Shown here piece after piece: positions 8,290 to 64,000 of a stretch of DNA of 64,000 nt (its first letter is position 1; the number at the start of each line of letters is the position of its first letter). Location: the IMG/VR virus record IMGVR_UViG_3300046786_000604, positions 12,364 to 76,363 of that record. The stretch is one strand, 5' to 3'. The position numbers were made by a program, and so were the translations under genes. Below the pieces are notes generated by a model, which saw nothing but the letters and a program-made list of their open reading frames with translations, had not been told where the DNA came from and ran no database searches. This DNA is from a virus. Lineage: Duplodnaviria > Heunggongvirae > Uroviricota > Caudoviricetes.

Positions 8290-8332
8290 ATAATCCCTTC
8301 TAATCCACAGCCGAATTTTGCTAATACATAGA

Positions 8333-8356: not shown

Positions 8357-9160
8357 ACCTTTACATTTAGCTTGTTTTGCTTTAGTTAATGCACCAAAGT
8401 CAACAGGCCATAATTGGTCAAGTGGTAATTCCGATGCATTAGCTGGATATGCAAATGTAATACCAGTCAATTGTTGGATTTGTGCAATTGGTGCTCTAAC
8501 TTTTGTTAAATCATTGCCTAATCCTGCTTGATGTGGAAAAATGAAACCAGCTACTTCATTAGTGGCGGTATCTATTACAATTTTAAAAAATGCATGTGGA
8601 ACAATTACATTGTTTACACCGATTGTTTTGTCTGATTGGGTATAAATCGGGCCAGCATAAATTACATAAGGATGATTTCGTTGAACAGTCCATCCTCGAA
8701 CACTAGTTTCAAGGAGCTTCCATGTTGATCTATTGAGTCCTGGTAATTGTGGGAACATATTGGTTAGTAAAAAACTTTCTTTTTCAAATTGATCGAAACT
8801 GCTCATATCAGCATTTGGTGCAACATGCCCGATATCATATCCTGACTTGGCATAATCTGCTAACTCTGCTCTACTGCCTTTTGGTAAACTTTGATCAGGT
8901 GCGAATCCATTAGAACGTGGTACACATCCTAATGCATATTCAGGATAAAGTGTGTAAGAAACCCACACTGGTAATTTAGCAGTTGTATCATTTAATGTAA
9001 CATAACCGGCACGACAAATTGCTACACCTTGTTTAGCAGTTTGTGGAAAGCCATATGGTGATTGAACTTGACATTTTTCAATTGGGTAAGGTGCATATTG
9101 TTCCCAAGCATGTACAGGAACTGTAAAAAATGCAGTGATTAAAAATAAAATATATTTCAT
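8345..9160 (-). CDS. secreted DNA/RNA non-specific endonuclease (NUC/Serratia-nuclease family)
   Basis: Signal peptide MKYILFLITAFFTVPVHA; catalytic-type motif GYDIGHVAPNADM (D-R-G-H family). Confidence 0.65.
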   Translation of the reverse strand: MKYILFLITAFFTVPVHAWEQYAPYPIEKCQVQSPYGFPQTAKQGVAICRAGYVTLNDTTAKLPVWVSYTLYPEYALGCVPRSNGFAPDQSLPKGSRAELADYAKSGYDIGHVAPNADMSSFDQFEKESFLLTNMFPQLPGLNRSTWKLLETSVRGWTVQRNHPYVIYAGPIYTQSDKTIGVNNVIVPHAFFKIVIDTATNEVAGFIFPHQAGLGNDLTKVRAPIAQIQQLTGITFAYPANASELPLDQLWPVDFGALTKAKQAKCKGKAE

Positions 9161-16909: not shown

Positions 16910-16938
16910 ATTATATCGTTTTACATCGAATCTGTCAA
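16910..16938 (-). promoter_or_regulatory. sigma70-type promoter (TTGACA-17-TATAAT) for helicase-like/MTase operon
   Basis: Minus strand reads TTGACAgattcgatgtaaaacgaTATAAT. Confidence 0.55.
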
Positions 16939-16950
16939 GATTTATTTCTC

Positions 16951-16979
16951 TTGACATACCTTCAGCTACCTTGTATAAT
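16951..16979 (+). promoter_or_regulatory. sigma70-type promoter (TTGACA-17-TATAAT) for the plus-strand small-ORF array; divergent partner of 16910..16938
   Basis: TTGACAtaccttcagctaccttgTATAAT, 29 nt upstream of ATG 17008. Confidence 0.6.
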
Positions 16980-34918: not shown

Positions 34919-36257
34919 CGAATAGCCATTCAGTTATTAATTTACCATCTTCATAAATATCAAATAATTCATCTTTTTTTGTATCGTCGAGTAAATCACT
35001 GTAGTATTCACCATTTTCATCTTTAAATAATGTGACCAATCCTTTTTTACTTGACTTACCTTGGTCAGTAATTGGATCTTTGAATACACCAACCCATTCA
35101 CCATTGATATAAGCAGCTGAACATTTCATTGCCCATTTGTTGGTATCACGGTCTACTTTTTGTAGTAATGCACCGCCCATGCCAAATGCTACGTTATCTG
35201 CTGAAAAGCCAGCTTTAGTGATAGCTTCTAAGATATCACGGATAGAAGTCCAATTAATACCATCACCTTGTAATACTCTTACATGGTTAAGGACTTTATA
35301 ACCTTTATTATTGATATAGAATCCAAATTGTTCTTGCAGGATTTGTAAACATTGTAGAACTACGGTAGCTGGATCACCAGAATCTGGACGGATTACAAGT
35401 GTAGCGCCACTATCAATAATGTGTTGTCTTAGTTCTTTACCCCATAATGACCGACAAGCATTAAAAATATCATAGCTATCGGAAACTACAGCAACAACTG
35501 AACCTGGTTTGGCGAACTGTTTAAGCATGTTTCTGTATGCTTCAACTTCATTTTCTTTACCCCAGCTGGTAATAGTAGAATGTTCTGCAGCTGGAACACT
35601 ATAACCAGCCATATCAGCACCATAATACTTACGGGCAAACATAAGGGCCGCCAATGTATCAGTACCTTTGAAGTTAACAAGGTGTGATGCGCCACCGATT
35701 CCGGCAGATTCTAAACTAGATACACCACGAGCGCCAAAATCATGAAGCTTAAAGTCAATTGTACTTGGATCACCAGTTTTCTCTAAGTATTGCGTAATTA
35801 ATTGTTTAATGTACCAACTTTGTGTAGCAACAGTGGTTGGATACCAAATTGCTCTTAATAATGCAGTTTCAACCCAGGTTGTTAACCAATAGCATTGTGG
35901 ATCAGTATTAACAATTGTTGCTAATACATTTCTTACAGGAATGACTGAACCTTCTTTAGCCGCTCTAATTTTTAATGGCAAGTATCCTTTGTGTTTGTCC
36001 AAGATATACTGCCAACCTTCACGATTAAATGGTACACCATGGGCTTTACAAATAGCATCCGCTTCATCGATGTCTTCTTGGGTGATTGGTTTGGATAAGA
36101 ACTCCTTAATAAAGGCTTGTAAGCCGAACATAACGGTGTGGTCATATACCCCACCACGACTTTCGATATAGCTATAAACATATTCAGTCCCAGCTGGGTA
36201 CTGTTTGAACATTGAACATTTGTATGAATCAGTATTTAAGATAATTGATAATGACAT
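34884..36257 (-). CDS. nadV: nicotinamide phosphoribosyltransferase (Nampt/NadV)
   Basis: 457 aa; NTDSYKCSMFKQYP N-terminus and conserved Nampt blocks throughout; AAGGAG RBS. Confidence 0.8.
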   Translation of the reverse strand: MSLSIILNTDSYKCSMFKQYPAGTEYVYSYIESRGGVYDHTVMFGLQAFIKEFLSKPITQEDIDEADAICKAHGVPFNREGWQYILDKHKGYLPLKIRAAKEGSVIPVRNVLATIVNTDPQCYWLTTWVETALLRAIWYPTTVATQSWYIKQLITQYLEKTGDPSTIDFKLHDFGARGVSSLESAGIGGASHLVNFKGTDTLAALMFARKYYGADMAGYSVPAAEHSTITSWGKENEVEAYRNMLKQFAKPGSVVAVVSDSYDIFNACRSLWGKELRQHIIDSGATLVIRPDSGDPATVVLQCLQILQEQFGFYINNKGYKVLNHVRVLQGDGINWTSIRDILEAITKAGFSADNVAFGMGGALLQKVDRDTNKWAMKCSAAYINGEWVGVFKDPITDQGKSSKKGLVTLFKDENGEYYSDLLDDTKKDELFDIYEDGKLITEWLFDEIREQSNNHN

Positions 36258-36278
36258 AATTAAACTCCTTAATTAGTT

Positions 36279-36304
36279 AAAAAAGCCACCGTCTATCAGT
36301 GGCT
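36279..36304 (-). terminator. terminator-like hairpin + U-tract between the promoter and the nadV start (attenuator or operon terminator)
   Basis: Minus strand AGCCAC-tgatagac-GTGGCT then TTTTT; located +12 to +37 relative to the predicted TSS of promoter 36323..36350. Confidence 0.4.
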
Positions 36305-40461: not shown

Positions 40462-40485
40462 ATTATAGCAGATTATATAAAACTG

Positions 40486-40489
<4 letters not shown>
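40462..40489 (-). promoter_or_regulatory. sigma70-type promoter (TTGACA-16-TATAAT)
   Basis: Minus strand TTGACAgttttatataatctgcTATAAT. Confidence 0.5.
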
Positions 40490-42345
<1,856 letters not shown>

Positions 42346-43435: not shown

Positions 43436-44350
43436 TCATTTATTATTCCAGGTTTGTGAAAGTTCGTACAATTGTAACGCCATTTCCTCAATATTGTCAA
43501 GCATTGTTAATTTATTACGCCAGTCTGTTGGAATACCATCGATACCATAATATGCACCGGCTAATTGTCCACAAATTGCAGCAGTGGTATCAGCGTCATC
43601 GCCAAGATTGGCAGCTTTTAAGATTGCATCTCTAAAGTTATCAGTAGTATAAAAACACCATAATGCTGCTTCTAATGATTCAACTACATACCCAGACCCT
43701 TTGATATCATCTACAGTCTTATCAAAATAACTGCCTTTGGCAATTTCAACAATTTTTGGATGACCAGTAAAATTAAGCTGGTTTTGAATGATGTCATGTT
43801 TTGATTCACCTTTTAACGCATCTGCAATCATTCTTGAATACAACCTACAGGCATCAATTGATTCTGATACATTATGAGTATATTCTGAATTAATGATGGA
43901 TAAATCATCGAGTTCATTGGTATCAAGATATGCCAGCATTGGAATTGGTGCCAATCTCATTAATGCACCATTTCCAGCAGACCATCCATCTGTACCACCC
44001 GAACAGGTATCACCAGTTTGTTGGTATCGTTTTAATGCTTGTTTAGTGGTGTTGCCAATATCAAAACAACGTCCATTACTAGACATATACCCATTATCCA
44101 TCCAATCACAAAACTTGTTCATGATATCGTCTGATTGGATACCTTGGTGTTCAATAATACTAGCGGCTAAGCATAATGCCATTGAAGTGTCATCAGTCCA
44201 TTGACCTATTTGTAGACAGAACGGTCCTCCGCCTACCATATCGGTTAGCGGAGTAAATTCTCCACGTTCTTTGAACTCAACTGTAGTACCAACTGCATCA
44301 CCAGCTGCTAATCCCACTAGACATCCTAGAAATCTATTTTGGATCTTCAT
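43436..44350 (-). CDS. ADP-ribosylglycohydrolase (ARH/DraG family)
   Basis: MKIQNRFLGCLVGLAAGDAVGTTVEF...GQWTDDTSMALCLA; ARH family signatures; start set at the internal Met. Confidence 0.7.
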   Translation of the reverse strand: MKIQNRFLGCLVGLAAGDAVGTTVEFKERGEFTPLTDMVGGGPFCLQIGQWTDDTSMALCLAASIIEHQGIQSDDIMNKFCDWMDNGYMSSNGRCFDIGNTTKQALKRYQQTGDTCSGGTDGWSAGNGALMRLAPIPMLAYLDTNELDDLSIINSEYTHNVSESIDACRLYSRMIADALKGESKHDIIQNQLNFTGHPKIVEIAKGSYFDKTVDDIKGSGYVVESLEAALWCFYTTDNFRDAILKAANLGDDADTTAAICGQLAGAYYGIDGIPTDWRNKLTMLDNIEEMALQLYELSQTWNNK

Positions 44351-44651
44351 TTTTGGTATTTTCCTTAATAATGTTATGAATTGCGGTAGCATGTTCGTCA
44401 AGTTTTTGGCGTAGTTCTTTATCACCGATCCAATCGATTTTCTTTCTCAGTTTATCGAGATGCTTGAAAAGTTTTTCTTCTAAATGTTTATCAATTTTTT
44501 TAGCCATCATAATTGTCTCTTTTGTTGGTCCAGCCATTACACCACCTTGAAAGTCCAGTGTTTCGGCATCTGTAAGTCTTTTAGCAAATACATTGCGACT
44601 TGATTCGCAATATTCTAGCATTGTTTTGTGTATATCAGTTGAATCGTTCAT
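44334..44651 (-). CDS. hypothetical protein
   Basis: 105-aa ORF. Confidence 0.4.
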   Translation of the reverse strand: MNDSTDIHKTMLEYCESSRNVFAKRLTDAETLDFQGGVMAGPTKETIMMAKKIDKHLEEKLFKHLDKLRKKIDWIGDKELRQKLDEHATAIHNIIKENTKNEDPK

Positions 44652-50831: not shown

Positions 50832-51070
50832 GACCACCTCAACACAAACCAAGTGTAATAAGCTTCATTTTCAAATACGATTCTATCAAATTCTATCTCT
50901 CTGAGTGATTCATCATCATATAATTCATAGGCTTTAAATTGGGCAAATGCATCTTCCATATTATCAAAATATTCGTCAGCAGATATAGAATCATCCCTCG
51001 ACCCACAACCTCTTGTAAAATTTTCACATACTTCGTCAGGCATATCAGTCCATTTAATAATAAAATTCAT
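50828..51070 (-). CDS. WF-LRWS family small protein
   Basis: ...FENEAYYTWFVLRWS. Confidence 0.55.
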   Translation of the reverse strand: MNFIIKWTDMPDEVCENFTRGCGSRDDSISADEYFDNMEDAFAQFKAYELYDDESLREIEFDRIVFENEAYYTWFVLRWS

Positions 51071-51282
51071 TAACTCCACCTCATTATGAACCAAGTCTTA
51101 TATTCTTCGCCTTCAAATGCAATATGAGTGTGAACGTGTTTAGATACACTTATAATTTTTGGATCTAAACTTTTAATGAAAACAAGCCAATCACTGCTAC
51201 AATTATGGTTACCGCTCTGTTTAAACAACTTAAACAGCTTACGTTCGAGTTCAGATGTATGTTTGATTACAAGTTCATTCAT
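51070..51282 (-). CDS. WF-LRWS family small protein
   Basis: ...FEGEEYKTWFIMRWS. Confidence 0.55.
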   Translation of the reverse strand: MNELVIKHTSELERKLFKLFKQSGNHNCSSDWLVFIKSLDPKIISVSKHVHTHIAFEGEEYKTWFIMRWS

Positions 51283-51354
51283 TTTAATCTATTCCAATCT
51301 TTGGATGATCTTTTAAAGATAAGATACATTTTAAACGCCATTCGGTTCTATCTT

Positions 51355-51384
51355 AGTAAACTTGTACTGTATATTCAATCATTT
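51355..51384 (-). pseudogene. relic 5' fragment of a MORN-variant paralog (MIEYTVQVY-stop) in the leader of 51070..51282
   Basis: Minus strand ATGATTGAATATACAGTACAAGTTTACTAA versus the intact gene start at 62257 ATGATCGAATATACAGTTCAAGTTTACGAA. Confidence 0.45.
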
Positions 51385-51416
51385 TAAATTTTCCTGTGTT
51401 ATGTTAAGATGTGTAC

Positions 51417-51444
51417 ATTATAACAGAATAAAACTACTTGTCAA
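51417..51444 (-). promoter_or_regulatory. sigma70-type promoter (TTGACA-16-TATAAT)
   Basis: Minus strand TTGACAagtagttttattctgtTATAAT. Confidence 0.5.
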
Positions 51445-51456
51445 TTATTTAAATAA

Positions 51457-51657
51457 TCATTGTTTTAGTAAGAACCAAGTGTAATGTGCTTCTGTTTCAA
51501 AAGTCAGCAGATACTCCGAATGCCCCCATACCCTGAAATCCAGTATATCAGGGTACCTAGTAAATACAAAATCAGAGAAAGTACCAATGAACCCAGCTTC
51601 TCGCCATTTACCAAAAAAATTAAATGTGGAAGCTTGGACTGCGATTGTATAAGTCAT
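51457..51657 (-). CDS. WF-LRWS family small protein (WFLLKQ variant)
   Basis: ...FETEAHYTWFLLKQ. Confidence 0.5.
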   Translation of the reverse strand: MTYTIAVQASTFNFFGKWREAGFIGTFSDFVFTRYPDILDFRVWGHSEYLLTFETEAHYTWFLLKQ

Positions 51658-51899
51658 TGTTTTAATAAAAACCAAGTGTAATGCGCTTCAGATTTAAATG
51701 TTAAATTCAAATCAGGGAATAGCATCGAGTCATATTGACTATTTGGTATATTTTCTATACTTTCAAATATATCAGAGTAATTCTCTAATAAAAAATCAGA
51801 ATATGCTGATGCATCAATCCAACCATTTTTAAAATAAACAAGTAATGATGGCCATTTAGAATACGTGGTGGCCCAACTGACAGTTATACTATAACTCAT
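51654..51899 (-). CDS. WF-LRWS family small protein (variant)
   Basis: ...FKSEAHYTWFLLKQ. Confidence 0.5.
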   Translation of the reverse strand: MSYSITVSWATTYSKWPSLLVYFKNGWIDASAYSDFLLENYSDIFESIENIPNSQYDSMLFPDLNLTFKSEAHYTWFLLKQ

Positions 51900-53573: not shown

Positions 53574-53601
53574 ATTATAGCAGATTACAGTTGATTGTCA
53601 A
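53574..53601 (-). promoter_or_regulatory. sigma70-type promoter (TTGACA-16-TATAAT); duplicated promoter-UTR cassette (cf. 32398..32481)
   Basis: Minus strand TTGACAatcaactgtaatctgcTATAAT then acaatttttaacaacaaagagtaaacaATG. Confidence 0.5.
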
Positions 53602-54421: not shown

Positions 54422-54449
54422 ATTATAGCAGAATATAAGCTATTGTCAA
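54422..54449 (-). promoter_or_regulatory. sigma70-type promoter (TTGACA-16-TATAAT) for a 58-aa ORF (about 54223..54392)
   Basis: Minus strand TTGACAatagcttatattctgcTATAAT. Confidence 0.45.
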
Positions 54450-57949: not shown

Positions 57950-58226
57950 CCCATTTTTTTAATTTAAGTTCGGCTATTTTTTGTAAATCTTGCTCGGATA
58001 CATCTGGATAAGTAATTCTTATTAAATCTAATATACAGATAATAGTATCAACAGCTTCACCTAAAATACCATCTTCCCCTGGACTTTTATAACTTTGTCC
58101 TTGATGAATAAGAACTTCTTCTGCTAATTCACCCAACTCAGACATGGTATGATTCATAACTCCTAGTGGAGTGCGAGAGTTTTTAATTACATCAGAAGTT
58201 CTAAATATTTGTTCTATTAAAGTCAT
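57930..58226 (-). CDS. MazG-like nucleotide pyrophosphohydrolase (all-alpha NTP-PPase)
   Basis: MSELGELAEEVL...ILGEAVDTIICILDL: E-x-x-E / D metal-binding helices typical of small MazG/dCTPase proteins. Confidence 0.45.
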   Translation of the reverse strand: MTLIEQIFRTSDVIKNSRTPLGVMNHTMSELGELAEEVLIHQGQSYKSPGEDGILGEAVDTIICILDLIRITYPDVSEQDLQKIAELKLKKWVVKTNG

Positions 58227-58262
58227 ATGAATTCCTTAAAGCAATGTTTGCAATTAGTTTCG

Positions 58263-58571
58263 TTAACCATTGTGCACCTGTTCAATAAATTGTTCAAAAT
58301 CTTTTTGATCTTTAAATGTTATACTAGTCCAATGGTTTGTTTTAGTGCTAAAATTAATAGTAGCATTATATTCAGTTTTGCAGAATTCTTTAATACCAGC
58401 AACTCCGACCCAATTCTGCAATTTAGCTTGTTTTCGAATTAGATCCATTACTCTAATAGTTGAAGTATCGTAGTCAGAAATTGCTATAACACGCCCAAAT
58501 CCTTCAGTAATAGTATTACCATTATCATTAACCACAGTGTGTTTAAATTTAATTCTCATAATTTGTACCAC
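58263..58571 (-). CDS. hypothetical protein
   Basis: 102-aa ORF. Confidence 0.4.
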   Translation of the reverse strand: MVQIMRIKFKHTVVNDNGNTITEGFGRVIAISDYDTSTIRVMDLIRKQAKLQNWVGVAGIKEFCKTEYNATINFSTKTNHWTSITFKDQKDFEQFIEQVHNG

Positions 58572-59398
58572 GAAGGAATTTTTTCTGGTAATGGTTTAGT
58601 AATATCAGTTACTAATACCTGTTCAGGTCCTTTTAAACGGAATTTACCGTAATAGCCTTCTTTTTCATGCCAAAATTGATCGCCCCATACATTTATAACT
58701 GCTGGCTCTTTTTTACGATAGATAATACCGTTTTGATACCATACCTCAATTGTTGGTGTGTGAATTGATGGACCTACAAAACCATTCATGCTAGGGTATC
58801 TATGATGCTTACCTCGAACATAATATGACCCATCATCATTTTGCATAATAGAAAATGGTCCTATTACATAGTGATGTGTAGTTATATGCCCGTATTCATC
58901 AGGAAATCCAATCCTAGTTGGAATACTATGTTGTGTAGATTCAACTAGTTGCATTCCTTCACGATGCATTCTTTTATGATCTCGATGCCTCGGTTCTTTC
59001 AGGCGGTATTGCATCGAAATTACCAATTGCTGCATAATAGTTTGTAAGGTAGGTACACCAAATTCCTTGTACATTGGATTTCTACCAACTTCATAAGATA
59101 ATGGATAAATTTCCGCCACAATCTTACCATTATGAATTACATTTTGTCCAGATATATTATTAATTACATCCGGTAACTTATATGGAACTCGTGGGTATTT
59201 GGTTTTTTTGATTGGTTTTATTTTGGCAAACTGACTGTCTGGTCCAACTCTCCAAGCTGATCTGATAGGCCATGTTTGATGAAATATACATGATGTAAAT
59301 CCAGTTGCAGTGCCTTTGGTGGCATAATCATGCTGTTGACGATAACAACGAATCCAAACCAGTCTTTCCACTTCATCACTTGTGTAAATATAATGCAT
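58556..59398 (-). CDS. hypothetical protein (His/Tyr-rich, 280 aa)
   Basis: ORF behind promoter 59430..59458. Confidence 0.45.
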   Translation of the reverse strand: MHYIYTSDEVERLVWIRCYRQQHDYATKGTATGFTSCIFHQTWPIRSAWRVGPDSQFAKIKPIKKTKYPRVPYKLPDVINNISGQNVIHNGKIVAEIYPLSYEVGRNPMYKEFGVPTLQTIMQQLVISMQYRLKEPRHRDHKRMHREGMQLVESTQHSIPTRIGFPDEYGHITTHHYVIGPFSIMQNDDGSYYVRGKHHRYPSMNGFVGPSIHTPTIEVWYQNGIIYRKKEPAVINVWGDQFWHEKEGYYGKFRLKGPEQVLVTDITKPLPEKIPSWYKL

Positions 59399-59429
59399 TT
59401 TGTGCTCCGGCGTGTTTAATTAAGTGTGT

Positions 59430-59458
59430 AGTATAACAAACCACTACACACTTGTCAA
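59430..59458 (-). promoter_or_regulatory. sigma70-type promoter (TTGACA-17-TATACT)
   Basis: Minus strand TTGACAagtgtgtagtggtttgtTATACT. Confidence 0.45.
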
Positions 59459-59460
59459 TA

Positions 59461-60477
59461 TTAGTTGCCTAAGAAATGTTGAATGATAGAATAATGATCT
59501 TCGAAGCAATTTTCACTTTGTAATTGCGATATAGGAATCCATGTTGCAGTTTTTGCATCATCAGCGCCTTTTACTTTTTCAAGAGGACCTTCTGGCAATT
59601 CAATATAGAATGCATGGGTAATGGTTCTGCCTCTAAACGATCTACCTGGGTGATCAAATACATGGCTTGCTTTAATGCTGCCTTTTAATACTGGCACTGG
59701 AACTTTAATTTTAGTTTCTTCTTTCAGCTCTCGAACTGCACCATCGATGATCAATTCATTTTGATCCAAGAATCCACCTGGCAATGCCATTAGACCTTTA
59801 CCTGGCAAGCATTTACGTTCAATCATTAATACATGTCCCGATTGAATTACGCAGCAATCCACAGTAACAAATACTGGAGGATATGCTAAACCAGCAAATT
59901 GCTGTTTATACTTGGCGATGAATTCTTTCTCATCTAGGATAGCATTGTATTCATCGGTACCATGAAATTGGTTTAAGAACGACAATGTATCATCAGGTAC
60001 CACACCTTTGATATAATCTTGGTTATATGGAGTTTTAAAATACAACTCACGAATGTCAGTGGCATTTAATTGGTTCTGTACATTATCGAATTCTTCTAAA
60101 GCCCATTGTGGAAATAGTTTTAGGTAGTAGGTTTCTGGACCTTTATTATGCCCAAGTAAACAAACACTTTGACCATGTGTACATTCAGCAACAATGCGTT
60201 GGACATTGATCGCCCAAACCTGATCATTATAAGGAATATCCACTAATGGTTCGATATAAACCTGAACGGCTGGTTCGATTTTAATTGAACGTAAGATCAT
60301 CCCACAACGTTCACTGAATGTAAATGGATTCTTAAATGTTCTTGGTTGTTTGGATGAGCCAAGCAAGATAATGACATTTTTTGCCAATTCTGCTGCTCTA
60401 TTGATTAGTTCTAAATGAGCGTTGTGAAGAGGTTGCGCTCTCATGATTACTACTGCATTGTCATATTTTTTGTTCAT
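59461..60477 (-). CDS. natV: bifunctional nicotinamide-mononucleotide adenylyltransferase / Nudix ADP-ribose pyrophosphatase (NadM-Nudix, NatV-like)
   Basis: N-terminus AVVIMRAQPLHNAHLELI ((H/T)xGH nucleotidyltransferase motif); C-terminal Nudix box GGFLDQNELIIDGAVRELKEETKI. Confidence 0.75.
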   Translation of the reverse strand: MNKKYDNAVVIMRAQPLHNAHLELINRAAELAKNVIILLGSSKQPRTFKNPFTFSERCGMILRSIKIEPAVQVYIEPLVDIPYNDQVWAINVQRIVAECTHGQSVCLLGHNKGPETYYLKLFPQWALEEFDNVQNQLNATDIRELYFKTPYNQDYIKGVVPDDTLSFLNQFHGTDEYNAILDEKEFIAKYKQQFAGLAYPPVFVTVDCCVIQSGHVLMIERKCLPGKGLMALPGGFLDQNELIIDGAVRELKEETKIKVPVPVLKGSIKASHVFDHPGRSFRGRTITHAFYIELPEGPLEKVKGADDAKTATWIPISQLQSENCFEDHYSIIQHFLGN

Positions 60478-60525
60478 ACTATAACTCCTATAGTTAAATT
60501 TAATAAAGTCTATCTTTATTAGTGC

Positions 60526-60553
60526 ATTATATCAGATTACTGTTACTTGTCAA
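60526..60553 (-). promoter_or_regulatory. sigma70-type promoter (TTGACA-16-TATAAT) with conserved 5'UTR cassette
   Basis: Minus strand TTGACAagtaacagtaatctgaTATAAT then aataaagatagactttattaaatttaactataggagttatagtATG. Confidence 0.55.
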
Positions 60554-61259
60554 CAATTTTAACTTTATAACCAAGTAATTGTTCAATTTCTTCAATGGAC
60601 ATATCTTTAATGGTTACTCTTTTATCAAACTTTTCTTTTGTTGTATATTCTACACCATTGACATAATAATATTTAAGACATCCAGCAGCCAATACAAGAG
60701 CAGGTCCGTCCTCTCTATGTCGTTTACCATTAACGATGTATTCATAATTTCCGTTACGATAGATTCGTGCAGGTCCATCCTCATTATGAAGAATTCCATT
60801 ACGATACCATTCTGTATTACCACGTGCTTCATATAATGCAGGACCGCCATCTCTATGAATTACACCATTGACATAATATGTATAACTACCGTCTGATTTT
60901 TCGACAGCTGGTCCATCTGTTCTATGTAATTTGCCATTTAAATACCATTCTTTTTCGCCAGAGGCATATTCAATAGCAGGACCATCTTCGCGATGTAAAG
61001 TGTCATTGACATAATATGTAATTATGTCATTTATTTTTAATGCTGGTCCATCTGTTCTATGTAATTTGCCATTGACATAATATGCATAATTACCGGCTGC
61101 ATTATAATTAGCTGGACCATCTTCGCGATGAGGAATTTTATCTAAAAACCAATTGGTTGTGTTTATTTCATTAATGTAAACTTTAACTACACCATCTGGT
61201 AAATTTTTTGGTTTTAATTCAGAAAGCAAGTTGAATGTAAATTCTGTGATGTGTGACAT
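60543..61259 (-). CDS. MORN-variant (MORN_2-like) repeat protein, paralog 1
   Basis: About 23-aa repeats W[YW][LV]NGxLHRxDGPAxE; conserved C-terminus SIEEIEQLLGYKVKIVDK. Confidence 0.55.
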   Translation of the reverse strand: MSHITEFTFNLLSELKPKNLPDGVVKVYINEINTTNWFLDKIPHREDGPANYNAAGNYAYYVNGKLHRTDGPALKINDIITYYVNDTLHREDGPAIEYASGEKEWYLNGKLHRTDGPAVEKSDGSYTYYVNGVIHRDGGPALYEARGNTEWYRNGILHNEDGPARIYRNGNYEYIVNGKRHREDGPALVLAAGCLKYYYVNGVEYTTKEKFDKRVTIKDMSIEEIEQLLGYKVKIVDK

Positions 61260-61315
61260 ACTATAACTCCTATAGTTAAATTTAATAAAGTCTATCTTTA
61301 TTATTATAATGGCAA

Positions 61316-61615
61316 TTATAATTCCATATATCGACTTCCAACAAATTCTAACATGTCATCATTAATTATTCCTTTCACTCCCAGATATATCATAATCGCA
61401 AATGGGTACATAGATTCTACAACTTCGTTATTTGTTATCTTACCATATAACTCTGGGTTGGGACTGAGAGATCTGAATTGTTTTCTCTCTAATTCTGTGC
61501 CGACTGGCTTTGGAAAATTCTCTGTCAAGTACGAGATTAATTGTTTGATGTTGTGTTTATTATTGGTGGCTATGGCATTATCCATTAGTTGCAACGATTG
61601 TTCAAACTTATTCAT
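61316..61615 (-). CDS. hypothetical protein
   Basis: 99-aa ORF with the conserved UTR cassette upstream. Confidence 0.4.
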   Translation of the reverse strand: MNKFEQSLQLMDNAIATNNKHNIKQLISYLTENFPKPVGTELERKQFRSLSPNPELYGKITNNEVVESMYPFAIMIYLGVKGIINDDMLEFVGSRYMEL

Positions 61616-61661
61616 ATTAATTCCTATAGTTAAATTTAATAAAGTCTATCTTTATTTGTGT

Positions 61662-61689
61662 ATTATATCAGATCACTGTTACTTGTCAA
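61662..61689 (-). promoter_or_regulatory. sigma70-type promoter (TTGACA-16-TATAAT), duplicate of 60526..60553
   Basis: Minus strand TTGACAagtaacagtgatctgaTATAAT plus the same UTR. Confidence 0.55.
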
Positions 61690-62257
61690 CAATTTTAATT
61701 TTATATCCAAGTAATTGTTCAATTTCAGCTACTGATAGCTCTTTACATTGGGTCATTTGGTTGAATTCTTGTTCTGAATATTGCTTGCCATTTAAAAACC
61801 ATCTTTTATGACCATTACGGTATTCAATTGCTGGTCCATCTACTCGATGTAGTTGATCATTTAAAAACCATTCTTTACAACCATCTGACCATTCGATAGC
61901 AGGTCCATCTTCACGATGGCATAATCCATTTAAATACCATCGTTTAAGGCCATTAGGATGTTCAATTGCTGGGCCATCGTTTCTATGGCGATTGTCATTT
62001 AAATACCATTGTTTTTCTCCATTGGCACATTCAATTGCTGGACCATCTTCTCTATGTAATCGTCCATTCAAATACCATCTTTTATCACCATCAACTCTTT
62101 CAATAGCTGGGCCATCTTCTCGATGTAATTGACCATTTACCCACCAGGATTTAGTACCGCCGATATATTCAACAGCTGGCCCGTCTTCTCGGTGTAAGTA
62201 ACCGTTAAGATGCCATTCTGTTCTATCTTCGTAAACTTGAACTGTATATTCGATCAT
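61679..62257 (-). CDS. MORN-variant repeat protein, paralog 2
   Basis: MIEYTVQVYEDRTEWHLNG... 6 repeats; C-terminus ELSVAEIEQLLGYKIKIVDK. Confidence 0.55.
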   Translation of the reverse strand: MIEYTVQVYEDRTEWHLNGYLHREDGPAVEYIGGTKSWWVNGQLHREDGPAIERVDGDKRWYLNGRLHREDGPAIECANGEKQWYLNDNRHRNDGPAIEHPNGLKRWYLNGLCHREDGPAIEWSDGCKEWFLNDQLHRVDGPAIEYRNGHKRWFLNGKQYSEQEFNQMTQCKELSVAEIEQLLGYKIKIVDK

Positions 62258-62685
62258 TTTACAATTTTAACCTTATATCCAAGTAATTGTTCAATTTCAG
62301 CTACTGATAGCTCTTTAGTTTGGGTCATTTGGTTGAATTCTTGTTCTGTGTATGCCTTGTCATTCACCCACCATTCTTTATTGCCAGTGAAAAATTCAAT
62401 AGCTGGGCCATCAATTCTATGACGTTGACCATTTACCCACCATGCTTTATTACCCCATTCAACAGCAGGACCATCTGTTCTATGACGTTTATCATTCACC
62501 CACCATTCTTTATGGCCATTGGGATATTCGATAGCAGGGCCATCTTCTCGATGTAACTTGCCATTTAAATACCATTCTTTGTAACCATTCTCAAATTCAA
62601 CAGCTGGTCCATCTTCTCGATGTAATTTGCCATTTAAATACCATTCGGTTCTATCTCTGTCAACTCGTACTGTGTACTCGATCAT
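62254..62685 (-). CDS. MORN-variant repeat protein, paralog 3
   Basis: MIEYTVRVDRDRTEWYLNG...; ATGA-coupled. Confidence 0.55.
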   Translation of the reverse strand: MIEYTVRVDRDRTEWYLNGKLHREDGPAVEFENGYKEWYLNGKLHREDGPAIEYPNGHKEWWVNDKRHRTDGPAVEWGNKAWWVNGQRHRIDGPAIEFFTGNKEWWVNDKAYTEQEFNQMTQTKELSVAEIEQLLGYKVKIVK

Positions 62686-63188
62686 CTTACCACCTTAATT
62701 TTATAACCAAGTAATTGTTCAATTTCAGCTACTGATAGTTCTTTAGTTTGGGTCAGTTGGTTGAATTCTTGTTCTGAATATTCTTGACCATTTAACCACC
62801 ATGCTTTATTACCACTGGTATATTCAACAGCTGGGCCATCTTCTCGATGTAATTTGTCATTTACCCACCATTCTTTATGACCATCACTCCATTCTATTGC
62901 AGGTCCATCTTGGCGATGGCGGTTATTATTAACCCACCATTCTTTACTGCCATCCATCCATTCAATTGCCGGGCCATCTACTCGATGTAATAGACCATTT
63001 AAATACCATTTTTTAGTGCCATTAGCTTGTTCGAGTGCAGGGCCATCTTCTCGATGTAATTGACCATTTAAGTACCATTCTTTATTGCCATCGGCGTACT
63101 CAATAGCTGGTCCATTTTCTCTATGTAATTGTCTATCTAATCGCCATTCAGTTCTATCTGCATGAACTCGTACTGTGTATTCAATCAT
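62682..63188 (-). CDS. MORN-variant repeat protein, paralog 4
   Basis: MIEYTVRVHADRTEW... start set at the ATG (the longer ORF uses GTG). Confidence 0.55.
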   Translation of the reverse strand: MIEYTVRVHADRTEWRLDRQLHRENGPAIEYADGNKEWYLNGQLHREDGPALEQANGTKKWYLNGLLHRVDGPAIEWMDGSKEWWVNNNRHRQDGPAIEWSDGHKEWWVNDKLHREDGPAVEYTSGNKAWWLNGQEYSEQEFNQLTQTKELSVAEIEQLLGYKIKVVR

Positions 63189-63222
63189 GTTGTGTCTCAC
63201 GGTGTTGTGTTAAGTTATGTGT

Positions 63223-63250
63223 ATTATAACAGTAATCTGTTATTTGTCAA
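63223..63250 (-). promoter_or_regulatory. sigma70-type promoter (TTGACA-16-TATAAT)
   Basis: Minus strand TTGACAaataacagattactgtTATAAT. Confidence 0.5.
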
Positions 63251-63567
63251 CGTAAAAACATCATAAAGTGAGCTTGATTGGTTTGAACACAACTTATCGC
63301 ATAAACACCAGTTTCATACCCTTGTTGTTTTAACATTGCTTGATCAACATCGACTTGTTCAAGGCTATCGTATACTTCAAATGAAGTGTAGTTGGTTATT
63401 ACAGGTTTAACAAATCCATTACCTTTATTGTACAGATATTCATCATCTTTACGATATATGACATAATTTGCACGTTCGTAATCTTTAATAGCGTATTCAA
63501 TTCTAATTAACATTCTGTACCATTTCATCGGTAGTAACATTAAAAGCTTTATATACAATTGTTTCAT
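63247..63567 (-). CDS. hypothetical protein
   Basis: 106-aa ORF. Confidence 0.4.
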   Translation of the reverse strand: MKQLYIKLLMLLPMKWYRMLIRIEYAIKDYERANYVIYRKDDEYLYNKGNGFVKPVITNYTSFEVYDSLEQVDVDQAMLKQQGYETGVYAISCVQTNQAHFMMFLR

Positions 63568-63570
63568 TAG

Positions 63571-63870
63571 TTAATCCTGGCAAGTATAATTGATTGCTGT
63601 ACCATTATCTTTCACGTTAGGTTTAGGTTTAGATAATTTAGATAATCTACAAAAAACTTCTTTAGCAGTTTCTTCAGTAGTTCTACATGATCCATCATAT
63701 AAGTATTTTGACCCTGGTAAACCATAAGTCCACCAATACTGCCCTGCAAAATTAGATCTAAAATCACAAAATGCAAACCCACAAAAAGTCAATTTACGAA
63801 TACCAAAAGTACCATCATTAAATTTTACTATTCTCATAAACATTTTATTCACCTTTTTAGTTATTGTCAA
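63571..63870 (-). CDS. hypothetical protein (Cys-rich)
   Basis: 99-aa ORF. Confidence 0.4.
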   Translation of the reverse strand: MTITKKVNKMFMRIVKFNDGTFGIRKLTFCGFAFCDFRSNFAGQYWWTYGLPGSKYLYDGSCRTTEETAKEVFCRLSKLSKPKPNVKDNGTAINYTCQD

Positions 63871-64000
63871 TATCTGGAACTTTCCACTTTATATAAAGAT
63901 CATTGCCGATAATCGATACATCGAACTTTATTTTTTTCAAGTGATTAAGTACCTTATCACATGTTTGCTGTTCAGCTAACGAAAAGAAATCAATAATAGT

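What the first reader, a model, noticed from the sequence alone, without database searches (positions are those of the whole stretch)
60543..63250. Four tandem MORN-variant repeat proteins with cloned promoter/UTR units, plus a relic copy elsewhere
Four paralogs (238, 192, 143 and 172 aa) consist almost entirely of 23-residue repeats, (E/K)W(Y/W)(L/V)NGxLHR(E/V)DGPA(I/V)E(Y/W)xxG. They share a conserved start MIEYTV(R/Q)V and a conserved C-terminus ELSVAEIEQLLGYK(I/V)KIV. Three promoters in this region share a conserved 5'UTR of about 45 nt (aataaagatagactttattaaatttaactataggagttatagt), which contains a small AT hairpin. A 9-codon relic of the family's 5' end, MIEYTVQVY-stop at 51355..51384, sits in the leader of an unrelated gene 10 kb away, evidence of past recombination through these units. 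MORN-type repeats usually mediate membrane or lipid association or protein-protein contacts, so these may target the host envelope.
Basis: partly seen in the sequence, partly recalled or inferred. Interest (0 to 1): 0.5.

Follow-up and report, generated by a model that had tools for sequence, protein, structure and literature searches.

The report
MORN-like gene cluster with NAD-leader copies
A recombination hot spot in a large phage holds four small beta-hairpin-repeat (MORN-like) genes of unknown role, and the "cloned" leader between them is a copy of a two-hairpin RNA leader, absent from Rfam, that precedes NAD-salvage genes in many phages and bacteria.

Summary
Four minus-strand paralogs (168, not 172; 143; 192; 238 aa) consist of 23-residue HRxDGPA repeats. 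Three share the cap MIEYTV, and all four share the tail EIEQLLGYK(I/V)K(I/V)V. An AlphaFold model (pLDDT 93.6) matches only solved MORN-repeat proteins at the top of the PDB list, so the MORN-type fold holds. Pfam MORN_2 stays below threshold, and nothing supports envelope targeting. The family is very large (about 38,800 clusters) and uncharacterised.

The relic is real and longer than reported: promoter, UTR and 18 codons, with a GAA-to-TAA change.

Only two of the three UTR copies have their own promoter. The promoter consensus occurs across the whole window, so only the UTR is "cloned". That UTR is the natural leader of the adjacent NMNAT/Nudix gene. It has hairpin 1 with loop A-N-W-G-A, then hairpin 2 showing the Shine-Dalgarno in its loop, then AUG. 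A covariance model finds it in 64 kb only before NMNAT, NAMPT, the 238-aa paralog, and in decayed form before the 99-aa ORFan.

Across phage contigs the model's hits almost all precede NAMPT, NMNAT or PnuC genes. In 47 of 78 bacterial nadV loci the hairpin-1 loop heptamer lies just upstream of nadV. Rfam 15 has no match.

In six close relatives the 99-aa gene and leader abut the NMNAT gene directly. The 238-aa gene is therefore a recent insertion that duplicated the leader.

The parts
63223..63250 (-). Promoter P1 of the paralog operon (TTGACA-16-TATAAT, TG-extended). It is followed by a 'type A' UTR (63189-63222) that differs from the two-hairpin leader.
   Evidence: 12/12 consensus match. 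The UTR aligns with the relic's UTR and with the paralog heads of L002.
62682..63188 (-). Paralog 1, 168 aa from the conserved ATG. N-cap MIEYTVRV, 5 full repeats, helical tail. Its stop overlaps the next start (ATGA).
   Evidence: The N-cap is conserved across the 56-sequence alignment of family members.
62254..62685 (-). Paralog 2, 143 aa, 4 full repeats. It is translationally coupled (ATGA overlap) to paralogs 1 and 3. This is the protein that was modelled.
   Evidence: AF2 pLDDT 93.6, pTM 0.67. MORN proteins top the PDB matches.
61679..62257 (-). Paralog 3, 192 aa, 6 full repeats. Its last codons (IVDK-stop) contain the -35 hexamer of promoter P2.
   Evidence: More than 7,900 homologues.
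61662..61689 (-). Promoter P2, overlapping the end of paralog 3.
   Evidence: 12/12 consensus match.
61616..61658 (-). Leader copy 3, before the 99-aa gene. Hairpin 1 is intact (61638-61656). Hairpin 2 and the SD have changed (GGAG to GGAA; the 3' arm is lost).
   Evidence: R1 gives 19.6 bits, E 0.03. The same altered form is seen in all 9 relatives that carry the 99-aa gene.
61316..61615 (-). 99-aa ORFan, unrelated to the repeat family.
   Evidence: No Pfam, PHROG or NCBIfam hit. Only one 90%-identity cluster of 19 members in 5.8 billion proteins.
61260..61303 (-). Leader copy 2, before the 238-aa paralog. Hairpin 1 is 61283-61303 (loop ATAGA). Hairpin 2 is 61260-61276 (loop GGAGT, the SD). 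It has no promoter of its own.
   Evidence: R1 gives 44.3 bits. It is 47/47 identical to copy 1. Folding. No promoter-like site upstream.
60543..61259 (-). Paralog 4, 238 aa. It has a different N-terminus, 7 more divergent repeats and the same tail. Its last codons hold the -35 hexamer of P3. It is present only in this phage among 11 close relatives.
   Evidence: The exact protein is not on record.
60526..60553 (-). Promoter P3, overlapping the end of paralog 4.
   Evidence: 12/12 consensus match.
60478..60521 (-). Leader copy 1, before the NMNAT/Nudix gene. Hairpin 1 is 60501-60521. Hairpin 2 is 60478-60494.
   Evidence: R1 gives 44.3 bits. The orthologous leader in L002 keeps the loop but swaps the stem (ATTAGCG/CGCTAAT).
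59461..60477 (-). Bifunctional NMNAT/Nudix gene (nadM/natV type), the native owner of the leader.
   Evidence: Pfam CTP_transf_like + NUDIX. PHROG cytidyltransferase.
60470..60590 (-). Downstream copy of a 121-nt direct repeat (paralog tail + promoter + leader + start codon). Its partner is 61608-61726.
   Evidence: blastn 91.7% over 121 nt.
61608..61726 (-). Upstream copy of the 121-nt direct repeat.
36257..36304 (-). An independent copy of the two-hairpin leader before the NAMPT (nadV) gene (34884-36257). It has quite different stems (AGCCACTG/CGGTGGCT; TAATTAA/TTAATTA) and the same loops (ATAGA; GGAGT).
   Evidence: R1 gives 43.9 bits. Python scan. NAMPT Pfam hits.
51331..51444 (-). Relic: promoter (51417-51444), type A UTR, ATG at 51382, TAA at 51355-51353 (codon 10). 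Homology continues to about codon 18. It now serves as the leader of an unrelated small gene.

Best explanation
What the locus is (shown). The stretch between a conserved 106-aa gene and the NMNAT/Nudix gene is a hypervariable hot spot in the early region of a large phage. The closest long relative is a 367-kb contig.

What the genes encode. The hot spot accumulates genes for small MORN-type beta-hairpin repeat proteins. I saw no obvious signal peptide or membrane segment by eye. Each has a short N-cap strand, 4-7 repeats of 23 residues, a half repeat and a two-helix tail.

How they are expressed. Paralogs 1-3 form one operon. It is read from a perfect host-type sigma-70 promoter and translated by ATGA stop-start coupling.

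The cassette. The conserved tail codons (..KIVDK-stop) double as the -35 box of the next promoter. Tail, promoter and leader therefore form one portable 3' cassette.

What the leader is (shown). The 43-nt 'cloned UTR' is the native leader of the NMNAT/Nudix gene. It is a member of a conserved two-hairpin RNA motif:
- hairpin 1 has a free-varying stem and the loop A-N-W-G-A;
- a 4-13 nt spacer follows;
- hairpin 2 presents GGAG(U/C), the Shine-Dalgarno, in its loop;
- AUG follows 0-4 nt later.
This motif precedes nadM, nadV and pnuC genes in many phages. Its hairpin-1 loop heptamer clusters before nadV and before the upstream nadM-like gene in bacteria.

History of the duplication (inferred from relatives). 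The ancestral order was 99-aa gene, leader, NMNAT. A unit made of the 238-aa gene, its tail, a promoter and a leader recombined in at the leader. This left two 47-nt identical copies and put the new gene behind the NAD-salvage leader. An older event of the same kind gave the 99-aa gene its half-decayed copy. The fragment at 51382 is the stump of another paralog head left by a similar exchange.

Mechanism (inferred, not shown).
- The leader acts on the mRNA. Hairpin 2 sets how the ribosome sees the SD and start codon. The conserved loop of hairpin 1 is the recognition point for a trans-acting factor, more likely a protein than a metabolite. That factor would co-ordinate expression of the NAD-salvage (NARP2) genes.
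- The repeat proteins are early-made binding modules. They probably bind and neutralise a host protein, as YwqK-type MORN_2 immunity proteins are thought to do. Paralog number and repeat number turn over quickly.
For: Repeat proteins:
- ORFs and repeats.
- A 56-sequence alignment of family members from the protein search shares the N-cap, and many share the tail.
- AF2 model with pLDDT 93.6. The PDB top 20 are all MORN proteins.
- Viral structure matches include many phage proteins and giant-virus 'MORN repeat-containing' proteins.
- 38,768 cluster representatives at E<=1e-3.
- Homologues sit among small genes on long metagenome contigs that carry T4-type RNA ligase or NADAR genes.

Hot spot:
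- Relatives carry 0, 1, 2 or 3 paralogs with 3-6 repeats, some fused or frameshifted.
- Six relatives have the 99-aa gene and leader directly before NMNAT.
- The 238-aa gene is absent from all 11 relatives.
- Direct repeats of 121 nt (91.7%) and 47 nt (100%).

Leader:
- It folds as two hairpins.
- 11 of 12 pairs covary in 32 leaders.
- Model R1 finds only 3 strong copies and 1 decayed copy in 64 kb, with noise from 12 bits down.
- In 303 kb of 26 phage loci, 47 hits were listed, 46 of them on the strand of the NMNAT gene. Downstream genes were 21 NAMPT, 17 NMNAT, 4 PnuC and 4 other. The 17 includes 6 start codons that I reassigned by eye.
- An unbiased IMG/VR-wide loop-pattern scan gave 15 two-hairpin matches. 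They were 9 NMNAT, 2 PnuC, 1 NAMPT and 3 copies of one gene that lies next to NMNAT in locus L009. The 39 non-hairpin, non-NMNAT matches gave no NAD genes.
- Cultured phages B23 and MD18 have it before both genes.
- Bacteria: GA[TC]AGAC lies 39-99 nt upstream of nadV in 47 of 78 species. A second cluster lies about 1.2 kb upstream, before the preceding nadM-like gene. Only about 13 further hits occur in 650 kb.
- No Rfam 15 match.
- Stems differ between leaders of one genome.
Against: - No experiment bears on function.
- The covariation count is partly circular, because my scan required stems. The non-circular support is position, loop conservation and the 7-mer enrichment.
- Perfect hairpins with conserved loops could simply be a stability element plus a good ribosome-binding site that travels with the genes.
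- One lineage (L104, L105, L107) has an NMNAT allele with a different, leaderless UTR. KVP40-like, Pseudotevenvirus and IME-SM1 phages lack the motif. It is therefore dispensable.
- The 47-nt copy before the 238-aa gene is too recent to show selection.
- For the repeat proteins there is no partner, no adjacent toxin gene and no PHROG or NCBIfam name. The YwqK analogy rests on a label that JGI gave to a few homologues.
- Pfam MORN_2 is sub-threshold.
Confidence: 0.55

Rival explanations
1. The two-hairpin leader is a generic high-expression module. It would combine a 5'-terminal or intercistronic stabilising hairpin with an SD-presenting hairpin and have no NAD-specific regulation. It looks NAD-linked only because it is inherited and transferred together with nadM-nadV.
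For: - Both hairpins are simple and fully paired.
- In promoter-proximal copies, hairpin 1 starts about 5 nt after the -10 box, at the mRNA 5' end.
- Some copies are followed by a T-run (window NAMPT leader; L125, L130).
- SD-in-loop hairpins without hairpin 1 occur at other genes of these phages (SDhp counts).
- Some NMNAT alleles do without the leader.
Against: - Loop sequences stay constant while the stems are replaced, across phages and Proteobacteria and in single cyanobacterial and Campylobacterales genomes.
- The unlinked NAMPT gene, 24 kb away in the window, has its own copy with unrelated stems.
- pnuC genes carry it too.
- No other gene in the 64 kb has it.
Confidence: 0.25
2. The leader is a riboswitch for an NAD-pathway metabolite (nicotinamide, NMN, NAD+, ADP-ribose or PRPP). 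The two conserved loops would form the binding site, and hairpin 2 would be the expression platform.
For: - It is strictly associated with nadV, nadM and pnuC across very distant taxa.
- In the bacterial versions part of the SD is paired (GACcGGAGGAtTTCCGTC-ATG).
- From my own knowledge: guanidine-II shows that two small hairpins with conserved loops can be a riboswitch.
- NARP2 is costly because it drains PRPP, so control would pay (bioRxiv 10.1101/2024.02.11.579819).
Against: - There are very few conserved unpaired nucleotides.
- The two loops are not complementary.
- There are no internal loops or junctions.
- There is no match to the NAD+-I or NAD+-II models, or to any other Rfam model.
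Confidence: 0.15
3. One reading: the MORN-like proteins associate with the host membrane or envelope.
For: The MORN-type fold and the historical link between MORN repeats and membrane contact.
Against: - No obvious signal peptide, lipobox or hydrophobic segment by eye in the translations; no predictor was run.
- TbMORN1, one of the best structural matches, did not bind membranes or vesicles and works as a protein-protein module (PMC7725318).
- No envelope-related neighbour genes.
Confidence: 0.08
4. Hairpin 1 is really a DNA operator (an inverted repeat) for a transcription factor of NAD metabolism such as NrtR, not an RNA structure.
For: It is an inverted repeat close to promoters of NAD genes. 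NrtR regulons include prs-nadV and nadM-nadV (PMC2330246).
Against: - NrtR sites are 21-bp palindromes with the core GT-N7-AC (PMC2330246), which does not fit.
- The half-sites differ between the nadM, nadV and pnuC leaders within one genome.
- The conserved centre is asymmetric and always in one orientation relative to the gene.
- Many copies are intercistronic, with no promoter.
Confidence: 0.04
5. The paralog array has little function of its own. The repeat genes would persist as carriers of the tail-promoter-leader cassette and as by-products of unequal recombination between repeats.
For: - The -35 box lies inside the tail codons.
- Copy and repeat numbers vary freely, and some relatives have none (L103, L106).
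- Frameshifted and fused copies exist.
Against: - The N-cap, the repeat signature and the tail are conserved in distant, GC-rich homologues, where the promoter argument cannot apply (for example P0096).
- The ORFs are intact despite only 65-77% nucleotide identity between paralogs.
- The family is very large.
Confidence: 0.1

Closest known systems
MORN-repeat proteins (TbMORN1, MORN4, RSPH1, junctophilins) and the Pfam 'MORN repeat variant' MORN_2 / YwqK (COG2849) group
   Same: - A 23-residue period.
- Each repeat is a beta-hairpin that stacks into an elongated antiparallel sheet.
- The best PDB structure matches are all MORN proteins.
- A few homologues are labelled YwqK antitoxin by JGI.
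- Giant-virus relatives are named MORN repeat proteins.
   Different: - The signature is W-x-x-N-G-x-x-H-R-x-D-G-P-A, not YxGxWxxGKxHGxG.
- Pfam MORN_2 scores 17.5 bits against a cut-off of 29.6.
- There is no adjacent toxin gene.
- These are tiny proteins with their own N-cap and helical tail.
- No sequence relative has a solved structure.
PeSL cassettes of T4-like phages (Arbiol et al. 2010, PMC2839356; Comeau et al. 2014, PMC4122927)
   Same: - Short conserved regulatory cassettes (near-perfect sigma-70 promoter, SD, start codon, a stem-loop).
- They sit between small variable genes of hyperplastic regions.
- They lie at the joints of insertions, deletions and swaps between close relatives.
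   Different: - In PeSLs the stem-loop lies upstream of the promoter and acts as a terminator (PMC4122927). Here both hairpins lie downstream, inside the 5'UTR.
- Here the cassette also includes the last codons of the preceding gene.
- The leader part belongs to one metabolic regulon and also exists in bacteria.
NAD-related cis-regulators: NAD+-I (nadA) and NAD+-II (pnuC motif) riboswitches; NrtR and NadR operators
   Same: They control NAD biosynthesis or salvage genes from the 5' region. The NAD+-II motif also involves the ribosome-binding site of pnuC (from my own knowledge).
   Different: - No Rfam model matches any copy.
- The architecture is two plain hairpins with conserved pentaloops.
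- The gene set is nadM, nadV and pnuC in phages, Proteobacteria and at least one cyanobacterial MAG.
- It does not fit the NrtR core GT-N7-AC or the NadR operator TGTTTA-N6-TAAACA (PMC2330246).
NARP2 phage NAD+ reconstitution pathway (NAMPT + NMNAT)
   Same: The window encodes both enzymes. NARP2 counters NAD-depleting defence systems (bioRxiv 10.1101/2024.02.11.579819).
   Different: That work describes the enzymes. Its text does not mention a promoter or a UTR. Here the point is a shared leader and a neighbouring variable gene cluster.

Membership tests
MORN repeat proteins (structural class) | Repeat of about 23 residues | tested here: met
   Spacing between HRxDGP anchors is 23 in almost all cases, with single values of 21 and 22.
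MORN repeat proteins (structural class) | Beta-hairpin repeats that form an elongated antiparallel sheet like the solved MORN structures | tested here: met
   AF2 pLDDT 93.6. The Foldseek PDB top 20 are all MORN proteins, best E 2e-4, probability 1.0, TM about 0.4.
MORN repeat proteins (structural class) | Membrane or lipid association | not testable with these tools
   No hydrophobic segment or signal peptide seen by eye in the translations; no predictor was run. The property is disputed even for a canonical MORN protein (PMC7725318).
Pfam MORN_2 (PF07661, 'MORN repeat variant', YwqK-like) | Score above Pfam's gathering cut-off | tested here: not met
   Best in the window is 17.5 bits against a cut-off of 29.6, E 0.0045, for one paralog only. 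Nine of 56 family members reach E<0.01.
YwqK-type immunity proteins | Encoded next to a cognate toxin gene (YwqJ/LXG type) | tested here: not met
   The neighbours are a 106-aa gene, a 99-aa ORFan and NMNAT/Nudix. None has a toxin domain in Pfam or PHROGs.
Pfam DUF6745 (PF20530) | Match to the whole 206-position domain | tested here: not met
   Only profile positions about 57-90 match, which is the repeat-like part. Whole-protein scores are 24-35 bits against a cut-off of 27, and no single stretch passes. 52 of 56 relatives behave the same way.
PeSL regulatory cassette | Conserved intergenic unit with an early sigma-70-type promoter, SD and start codon, lying at indel joints between close relatives | tested here: met
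PeSL regulatory cassette | Stem-loop (terminator) placed just upstream of the promoter | tested here: not met
   Both hairpins lie between the -10 box and the start codon. PeSL layout is as described in PMC4122927.
Known NAD riboswitches and every other Rfam 15 family | Covariance-model match | tested here: not met
   No hit at E<=1 over window 58000-64000. None at the leaders of 13 bacterial loci and 1 phage locus.
NrtR operator | 21-bp palindrome with core GT-N7-AC, alike at all targets of one genome | tested here: not met
   The stems differ between leaders of one genome, and the conserved centre is asymmetric. The motif definition is from PMC2330246.
NARP2 / salvage pathway II | NAMPT together with a bifunctional NMNAT/Nudix | tested here: met
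   Pfam NAMPT_N + NAPRTase at 34884-36257. CTP_transf_like + NUDIX at 59461-60477.

The most novel reading that the evidence does not exclude
The 'cloned UTR' may be one member of an undescribed regulatory RNA class. The class is a two-hairpin leader: a G/C-closed A-N-W-G-A pentaloop, followed by a hairpin that presents the SD. It is specific to NAD salvage genes (nadM, nadV, pnuC), shared by bacteria and large phages, and read by a factor or metabolite that is still unknown. In phages it would make the NARP2 counter-defence pathway a co-ordinated, possibly inducible regulon. Genes that capture the leader, such as the 238-aa repeat protein here and the 213-aa, 108-aa and 122/136-aa unknowns elsewhere, would be candidates for new NAD-linked or anti-defence functions.
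Probability: 0.55. Interest if true: 0.75.

Novelty: new variant of a known kind. Interest (0 to 1): 0.6.

Why it matters
**Repeat proteins.** This is a well-resolved example of a very large, unstudied family of viral and bacterial MORN-like mini-proteins. It sits in a hot spot whose content changes between near-identical phages, which is the usual signature of host-interaction genes.

**Mechanism of gene shuffling.** The cassette is built from tail codons that contain the -35 box, then the promoter, then the leader. It shows concretely how large phages move small genes while keeping them expressed. This extends the PeSL idea to a different layout.

**The leader.** This is the part most likely to matter.
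- It gives a testable handle on how nadM, nadV and pnuC are controlled in many bacteria.
- It gives the same handle on how phages control NAD reconstitution (NARP2), a recently recognised counter-defence whose regulation is not addressed in the NARP2 preprint.
- It supplies a simple sequence and structure signature for finding further genes of that regulon.

Tried and rejected
- **Megablast against 50,697 phage records.** No match for 59400-63900, so no close cultured relative.
- **PHROGs and NCBIfam on the four paralogs and the 99-aa protein.** Nothing useful.
- **PDB sequence searches, single sequence and profile.** Nothing.
- **Single-sequence AlphaFold.** Useless at pLDDT 41. The run with an alignment worked.
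- **Exact look-up of the 192-aa and 238-aa proteins.** Not on record.
- **afdb50 fold library.** Unavailable.
- **Literature search for MORN in phages.** It returned noise, because 'morn' matches 'morning'.
- **PeSL membership.** Considered and rejected, because the stem-loop order is wrong.
- **NrtR operator.** Rejected, because the stems differ within a genome and the centre is asymmetric.
- **Loop-loop kissing, as in guanidine-II.** Rejected, because the loops are not complementary. I checked this by eye only.
- **CsrA-type GGA sites.** Hairpin 2 fits, but the phage hairpin-1 loops lack GGA.
- **R1 on bacterial loci.** The model was built from AT-rich phage copies and scored GC-rich bacterial copies poorly. 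I used direct inspection and a 7-mer enrichment test instead.
- **Host.** Not identified.

Full report
**1. What is at the coordinates**

All genes in this part of the window are on the minus strand. Read 5' to 3' on that strand, the order is as follows.
- A conserved 106-aa gene (63567-63247).
- Promoter P1 (63250-63223).
- Paralog 1 (63188-62682, 168 aa).
- Paralog 2 (62685-62254, 143 aa).
- Paralog 3 (62257-61679, 192 aa).
- Promoter P2 (61689-61662).
- A leader.
- An unrelated 99-aa gene (61615-61316).
- A second leader.
- Paralog 4 (61259-60543, 238 aa).
- Promoter P3 (60553-60526).
- A third leader.
- A bifunctional NMNAT/Nudix gene (60477-59461; Pfam CTP_transf_like + NUDIX).

Paralogs 1-3 overlap by ATGA, so they are probably translationally coupled. 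The 172-aa figure uses a GTG inside the UTR. The ATG at 63188 gives the N-terminus MIEYTV, which is shared across the 56-sequence family alignment. I therefore take 168 aa as the length.

**2. The repeats**

Anchoring on H(R/N)xxGP gives 5, 4, 6 and 7 full repeats. The spacing is 23 residues, with single exceptions of 21 and 22. Each protein then has a half repeat and a tail of the form ...TEQEFNQ(M/L)TQxKELSVAEIEQLLGYK(I/V)K(I/V)V. The 238-aa protein has a different N-terminus and more divergent repeats (Y for W), but the same tail.

**3. What the proteins are**

*Family-library matches*
- Pfam gives only partial, mostly sub-threshold matches. DUF6745 matches at profile positions about 57-90 of 206. 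MORN_2 scores 17.5 bits against a cut-off of 29.6.
- PHROGs, NCBIfam and PDB sequence searches give nothing useful.

*Size of the family*
- More than 7,900 of 8,000 scored candidates were significant in the 5.8-billion-protein search. A few are labelled 'antitoxin component YwqK' by JGI.
- A profile search of 1.84 billion cluster representatives found 38,768 at E<=1e-3 and 24,876 at E<=1e-10. Some of these proteins are up to about 1,900 aa long.
- A distinct subfamily of proteins of about 120 aa has the same architecture as the window's paralogs: N-cap MIEYxVxV, four repeats, then the tail. It includes GC-rich members such as P0096. The tail is therefore a protein feature, not only a by-product of the promoter it contains.

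*Structure*
- With that alignment, AlphaFold2 gave a confident model of the 143-aa paralog (pLDDT 93.6, pTM 0.67). It shows beta-hairpins followed by two helices.
- Foldseek against the PDB put only MORN-repeat proteins in the first 20 places: RSPH1, TbMORN1, MORN4, junctophilin-1/2 and ciliary MORN proteins. The best E was 2e-4.
- Against predicted viral structures, the best hits are uncharacterised phage proteins, several paralogs of Agrobacterium jumbo phage Atu_ph07, Celeribacter phage P12053L, and giant-virus proteins named 'MORN repeat-containing'.

*Conclusion*
The MORN-type fold is supported, but formal membership of Pfam MORN_2 is not. By eye, the translations show no obvious signal peptide or hydrophobic segment, although I ran no predictor. 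The only pure MORN protein tested directly did not bind membranes and behaves as a protein-protein module (PMC7725318). The envelope idea therefore has no support.

**4. Promoters**

TTGACA-N16/17-TATAAT with at most one mismatch occurs 22 times on the minus strand of the window. Most carry a TG extension and a similar downstream 'ACAC'. This is the phage's general early-promoter consensus, so similarity between promoters says nothing about copying.

Within the finding there are three perfect 12/12 sites (P1, P2, P3) and none upstream of the 238-aa gene.

The -35 hexamers of P2 and P3 lie inside the last codons (att gTT GAC Aag taa = I V D K stop) of paralogs 3 and 4. Tail, promoter and leader therefore form one unit. 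This is visible as a 121-nt direct repeat, 61726-61608 against 60590-60470, at 91.7% identity.

**5. The leader**

*In the window*
- The 43-nt sequence is identical before the NMNAT gene and before the 238-aa gene. With the ATG the identical stretch is 47 nt.
- The copy before the 99-aa gene keeps the first 39 nt (97% identical) but has lost the second hairpin and changed GGAG to GGAA.
- The RNA folds into two hairpins. Hairpin 1 is UAAUAAAG-AUAGA-CUUUAUUA. Hairpin 2 is ACUAUA-GGAGU-UAUAGU and ends at the AUG.
- In L002, a relative whose NMNAT is 98% identical, hairpin 1 is AUUAGCG-AUAGA-CGCUAAU. The stem is replaced and the loop is kept.

*In related phages*
- That prompted a look upstream of the NMNAT gene in 32 IMG/VR contigs whose NMNAT is 37-98% identical. 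Nearly all show the same plan: promoter, hairpin with a free-varying stem and loop AGAGA, AGUGA or AUAGA, a short spacer, hairpin with GGAG(U/C) in the loop, then AUG.
- On 32 distinct leaders, 11 of 12 pairs show changes on both sides. My scan required stems, so the percentage paired is circular. The replacement of stems around fixed loops is not circular.
- I built a covariance model, R1, from these leaders.

*Specificity in the window*
With filters off, R1 finds four sites in the 64-kb window:
- the two identical copies (44.3 bits each);
- an independent copy before the NAMPT gene at 36258-36302 (43.9 bits; stems AGCCACUG/CGGUGGCU and UAAUUAA/UUAAUUA);
- the decayed copy (19.6 bits).

Everything else scores 12 bits or less.

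*Specificity across phage loci*
- In 303 kb of 26 phage loci, R1 listed 47 hits. All but the weakest (16.2 bits) are on the strand of the NMNAT gene.
- The genes that follow the other 46 are 21 NAMPT, 17 NMNAT (6 of them after I corrected start-codon picks by eye), 4 PnuC (Pfam NMN_transporter, E 2e-37) and 4 unknowns.

*Test not anchored on NAD genes*
- I scanned all of IMG/VR for CAGAGAG-N10-28-AAAGGAGTTTT, a pattern based on the loops alone.
- This gave 58 matches. Fifteen fold into two hairpins: 9 NMNAT, 2 PnuC, 1 NAMPT, and 3 copies of one 213-aa gene that lies just upstream of NMNAT in locus L009.
- Four more NMNAT matches have a shorter hairpin-1 stem.
- The remaining 39 matches, which form no hairpins, precede no NAD genes.

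*Cultured phages*
- Phages B23 (record name 'Synechococcus phage B23') and Phaeobacter phage MD18 have the motif before both genes.
- KVP40-like, Pseudotevenvirus and IME-SM1 phages do not.

**6. The same signature in bacteria**

- I fetched eighty bacterial loci with a NAMPT profile (54-62% identity). They are mostly Proteobacteria, with some cyanobacterial and other MAGs.
- Many show GCCGGCGG-AUAGA-CCGCCGGC, a spacer, GACGCGAA-GGAGC-UUCCGUC, then AUG, or variants of this.
- At least 37 of the 78 scorable loci have a hairpin with 5 or more pairs and the loop AUAGA, ACAGA or AAAGA.
- In a non-circular test, the 7-mer GA[TC]AGAC lies 39-99 nt upstream of the NAMPT match in 47 of 78 loci (mode -56).
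- About 29 further copies cluster 1.16-1.27 kb upstream. In several loci the gene that ends just before hairpin 1 has a nadM-like C-terminus, so I read this cluster as lying before nadM.
- Only about 13 copies occur in the remaining 650 kb or so.
- Rfam 15 has no match for phage or bacterial copies.
- The element does not fit the NrtR operator (21-bp palindrome, core GT-N7-AC) or the NadR operator (PMC2330246). Leaders of one genome have unrelated stems, and the conserved centre is asymmetric and always oriented with the gene.
- I found no paper describing it. That is only as good as the library searched.

**7. History of the locus**

Close relatives were found through the NMNAT and 99-aa proteins. 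They show the following content between the 106-aa gene and NMNAT.

| Locus | Content |
|---|---|
| L103, L106 | Only the 99-aa gene |
| L100 | One paralog (192 aa), then the 99-aa gene |
| L099 | Two paralogs (122, 123 aa), then the 99-aa gene |
| L102 | Three paralogs (191, 120, 194 aa), then the 99-aa gene |
| L003 | Two short paralogs fused in frame; no 99-aa gene |
| L002 / L044 | A divergent 128-aa repeat protein, a 146-aa paralog, a 71-aa unit fused to a frameshifted copy; no 99-aa gene |
| L104, L105, L107 | The 99-aa gene, the leader plus the first 15 NMNAT codons as a stump, a 287-aa ORFan, a new promoter, then a different NMNAT allele without the leader |

- L044 is a 367-kb contig.
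- In six relatives the order is 99-aa gene, intact leader (no promoter), NMNAT. L109 shows the same order but is too short to show what lies upstream.
- The window is the only case with the 238-aa gene. That gene sits exactly between two perfect 47-nt leader copies.
- The simplest reading is a recent insertion of [238-aa gene + tail + P3 + leader] by recombination within the leader.
- The paralog bodies themselves are only 65-77% identical in DNA. They are therefore old or imported, not fresh duplicates.

**8. The relic**

On the minus strand, 51444-51331 aligns with the heads of the paralog operons of the window and of L002. The alignment runs from the -35 box through the type A UTR, the ATG (51382) and 18 codons. 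That is 87-89 identical positions of about 116 aligned columns.

Codon 10 is TAA where the paralogs have GAA. Homology continues after it (...DRTEWRL...).

The relic now lies in front of an unrelated small gene. It is the same kind of stump as the NMNAT stump in L104. Exchanges in this phage group therefore often break inside the first 15-18 codons.

**9. How it most likely works**

*Shown*
- The architecture, the fold class and the hot-spot behaviour.
- The identity of the UTR as the NAD-salvage leader.
- The specificity and conservation of that leader.

*Inferred*
- The leader acts at the RNA level.
- Hairpin 2 governs ribosome access. In the phage copies the SD is displayed in the loop. In many bacterial copies it is partly paired.
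- The loop of hairpin 1 is a recognition site for a trans factor. My estimates are: protein about 45%, small ligand about 15%, no specific factor about 25-30%.
- The repeat proteins are early cytoplasmic binding modules. Rapid turnover of paralogs and repeats, together with their position beside an anti-defence pathway (NARP2, bioRxiv 10.1101/2024.02.11.579819), suggests that they bind a host protein. The partner and the effect are unknown. I put this at about 35-40%.

**10. Verdict**

- As framed, the finding is a real but fairly ordinary phage feature: a variable cluster of an uncharacterised repeat family, with PeSL-like cassette shuffling.
- What raises its value is the leader. It appears to be an undescribed, widely conserved cis-regulatory RNA signature of nadM, nadV and pnuC, in both phages and bacteria.

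Noticed in passing
window 36257-36304 (-); loci L005-L033, L034, L035, L110-L189: The two-hairpin leader is not local to the finding. It precedes NAMPT, NMNAT/Nudix and PnuC genes in many phage contigs and in cultured phages B23 and MD18. Its hairpin-1 loop heptamer lies just upstream of nadV in 47 of 78 bacterial loci, with a second cluster before the upstream nadM-like gene. There is no Rfam 15 family for it.
   Followed up: yes
L009:5223-5264 and downstream; L004:5374-5418; L015:2362-2405; L019:5553-5597: Four genes of unknown function carry the NAD-salvage leader. They are a 213-aa protein with a GWHSDG motif, a 108-aa protein, and a 122/136-aa pair sharing GEDPNCDxGGxHxQPDLG. They have no Pfam match and may be new NAD-linked functions.
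   Followed up: partly
window 58556-59398 (-): The 280-aa gene just downstream of the NMNAT gene has two or three degenerate copies of the same repeat in residues about 174-245 (pairwise BLASTP E 3e-6 against the 238-aa paralog). Pfam finds nothing. Repeat-family genes therefore flank the NMNAT gene on both sides.
   Followed up: partly
window about 50900-51700 (-); L002:3106-3318 and 8176-8585: A second family of tandem small genes has conserved C-termini (...EAHYTWFLLKQ-stop, ...YKTWFIMRWS-stop, ...NWFILRWS-stop). The relic promoter now drives one of them.
   Followed up: no
L104:4310-4395 (also L105, L107): In one lineage the leader and the first 15 codons of the NMNAT gene survive as a stump. 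It is followed by an inserted 287-aa ORFan, a new promoter and an NMNAT allele with a different, leaderless UTR that contains the repeat CAACCAAT x3. This is the same kind of relic as window 51382.
   Followed up: partly
L002:5286-5928; L003:5420-5935; proteins P0009, P0016, P0049: In relatives, two repeat-protein units are fused in frame with no stop codon (...KIKVVK-MIEYTV...). In L002 one unit is split by a frameshift (HRTDGPEI-stop, and the tail continues in another frame).
   Followed up: partly
window, whole (for example 16910-16979, 40462-40489, 53574-53601, 54422-54449): The window has an unusually high number of perfect or near-perfect sigma-70 promoters (22 on the minus strand, 5 on the plus strand). 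Most have a 16-nt spacer and a TG extension, and many are followed by ACAC. There is a divergent pair at about 16910-16979. GC content is 34.6%.
   Followed up: partly
window 40836-42110 (-), 43436-44425 (-), 38550-39881 (-): The phage encodes a seryl-tRNA-synthetase-like protein (60% identical to a gene annotated serS in Acinetobacter phage MD-2021a), an ADP-ribosylglycohydrolase (PHROG 6572) and an AAA-type ATPase. Together with NAMPT and NMNAT this is a sizeable NAD/ADP-ribose tool kit.
   Followed up: no
window 36276-36284 (-); L125, L130: In some copies hairpin 1 is followed directly by a run of 5-6 T, so it looks like an intrinsic terminator or attenuator. Most copies have no T-run.
   Followed up: no
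window 61316-61615 (-): The 99-aa gene is a true ORFan. One 90%-identity cluster of 19 near-identical sequences is all that a 5.8-billion-protein search returns. Yet it is present, with the altered leader, in 9 of the 11 close relatives.
   Followed up: yes
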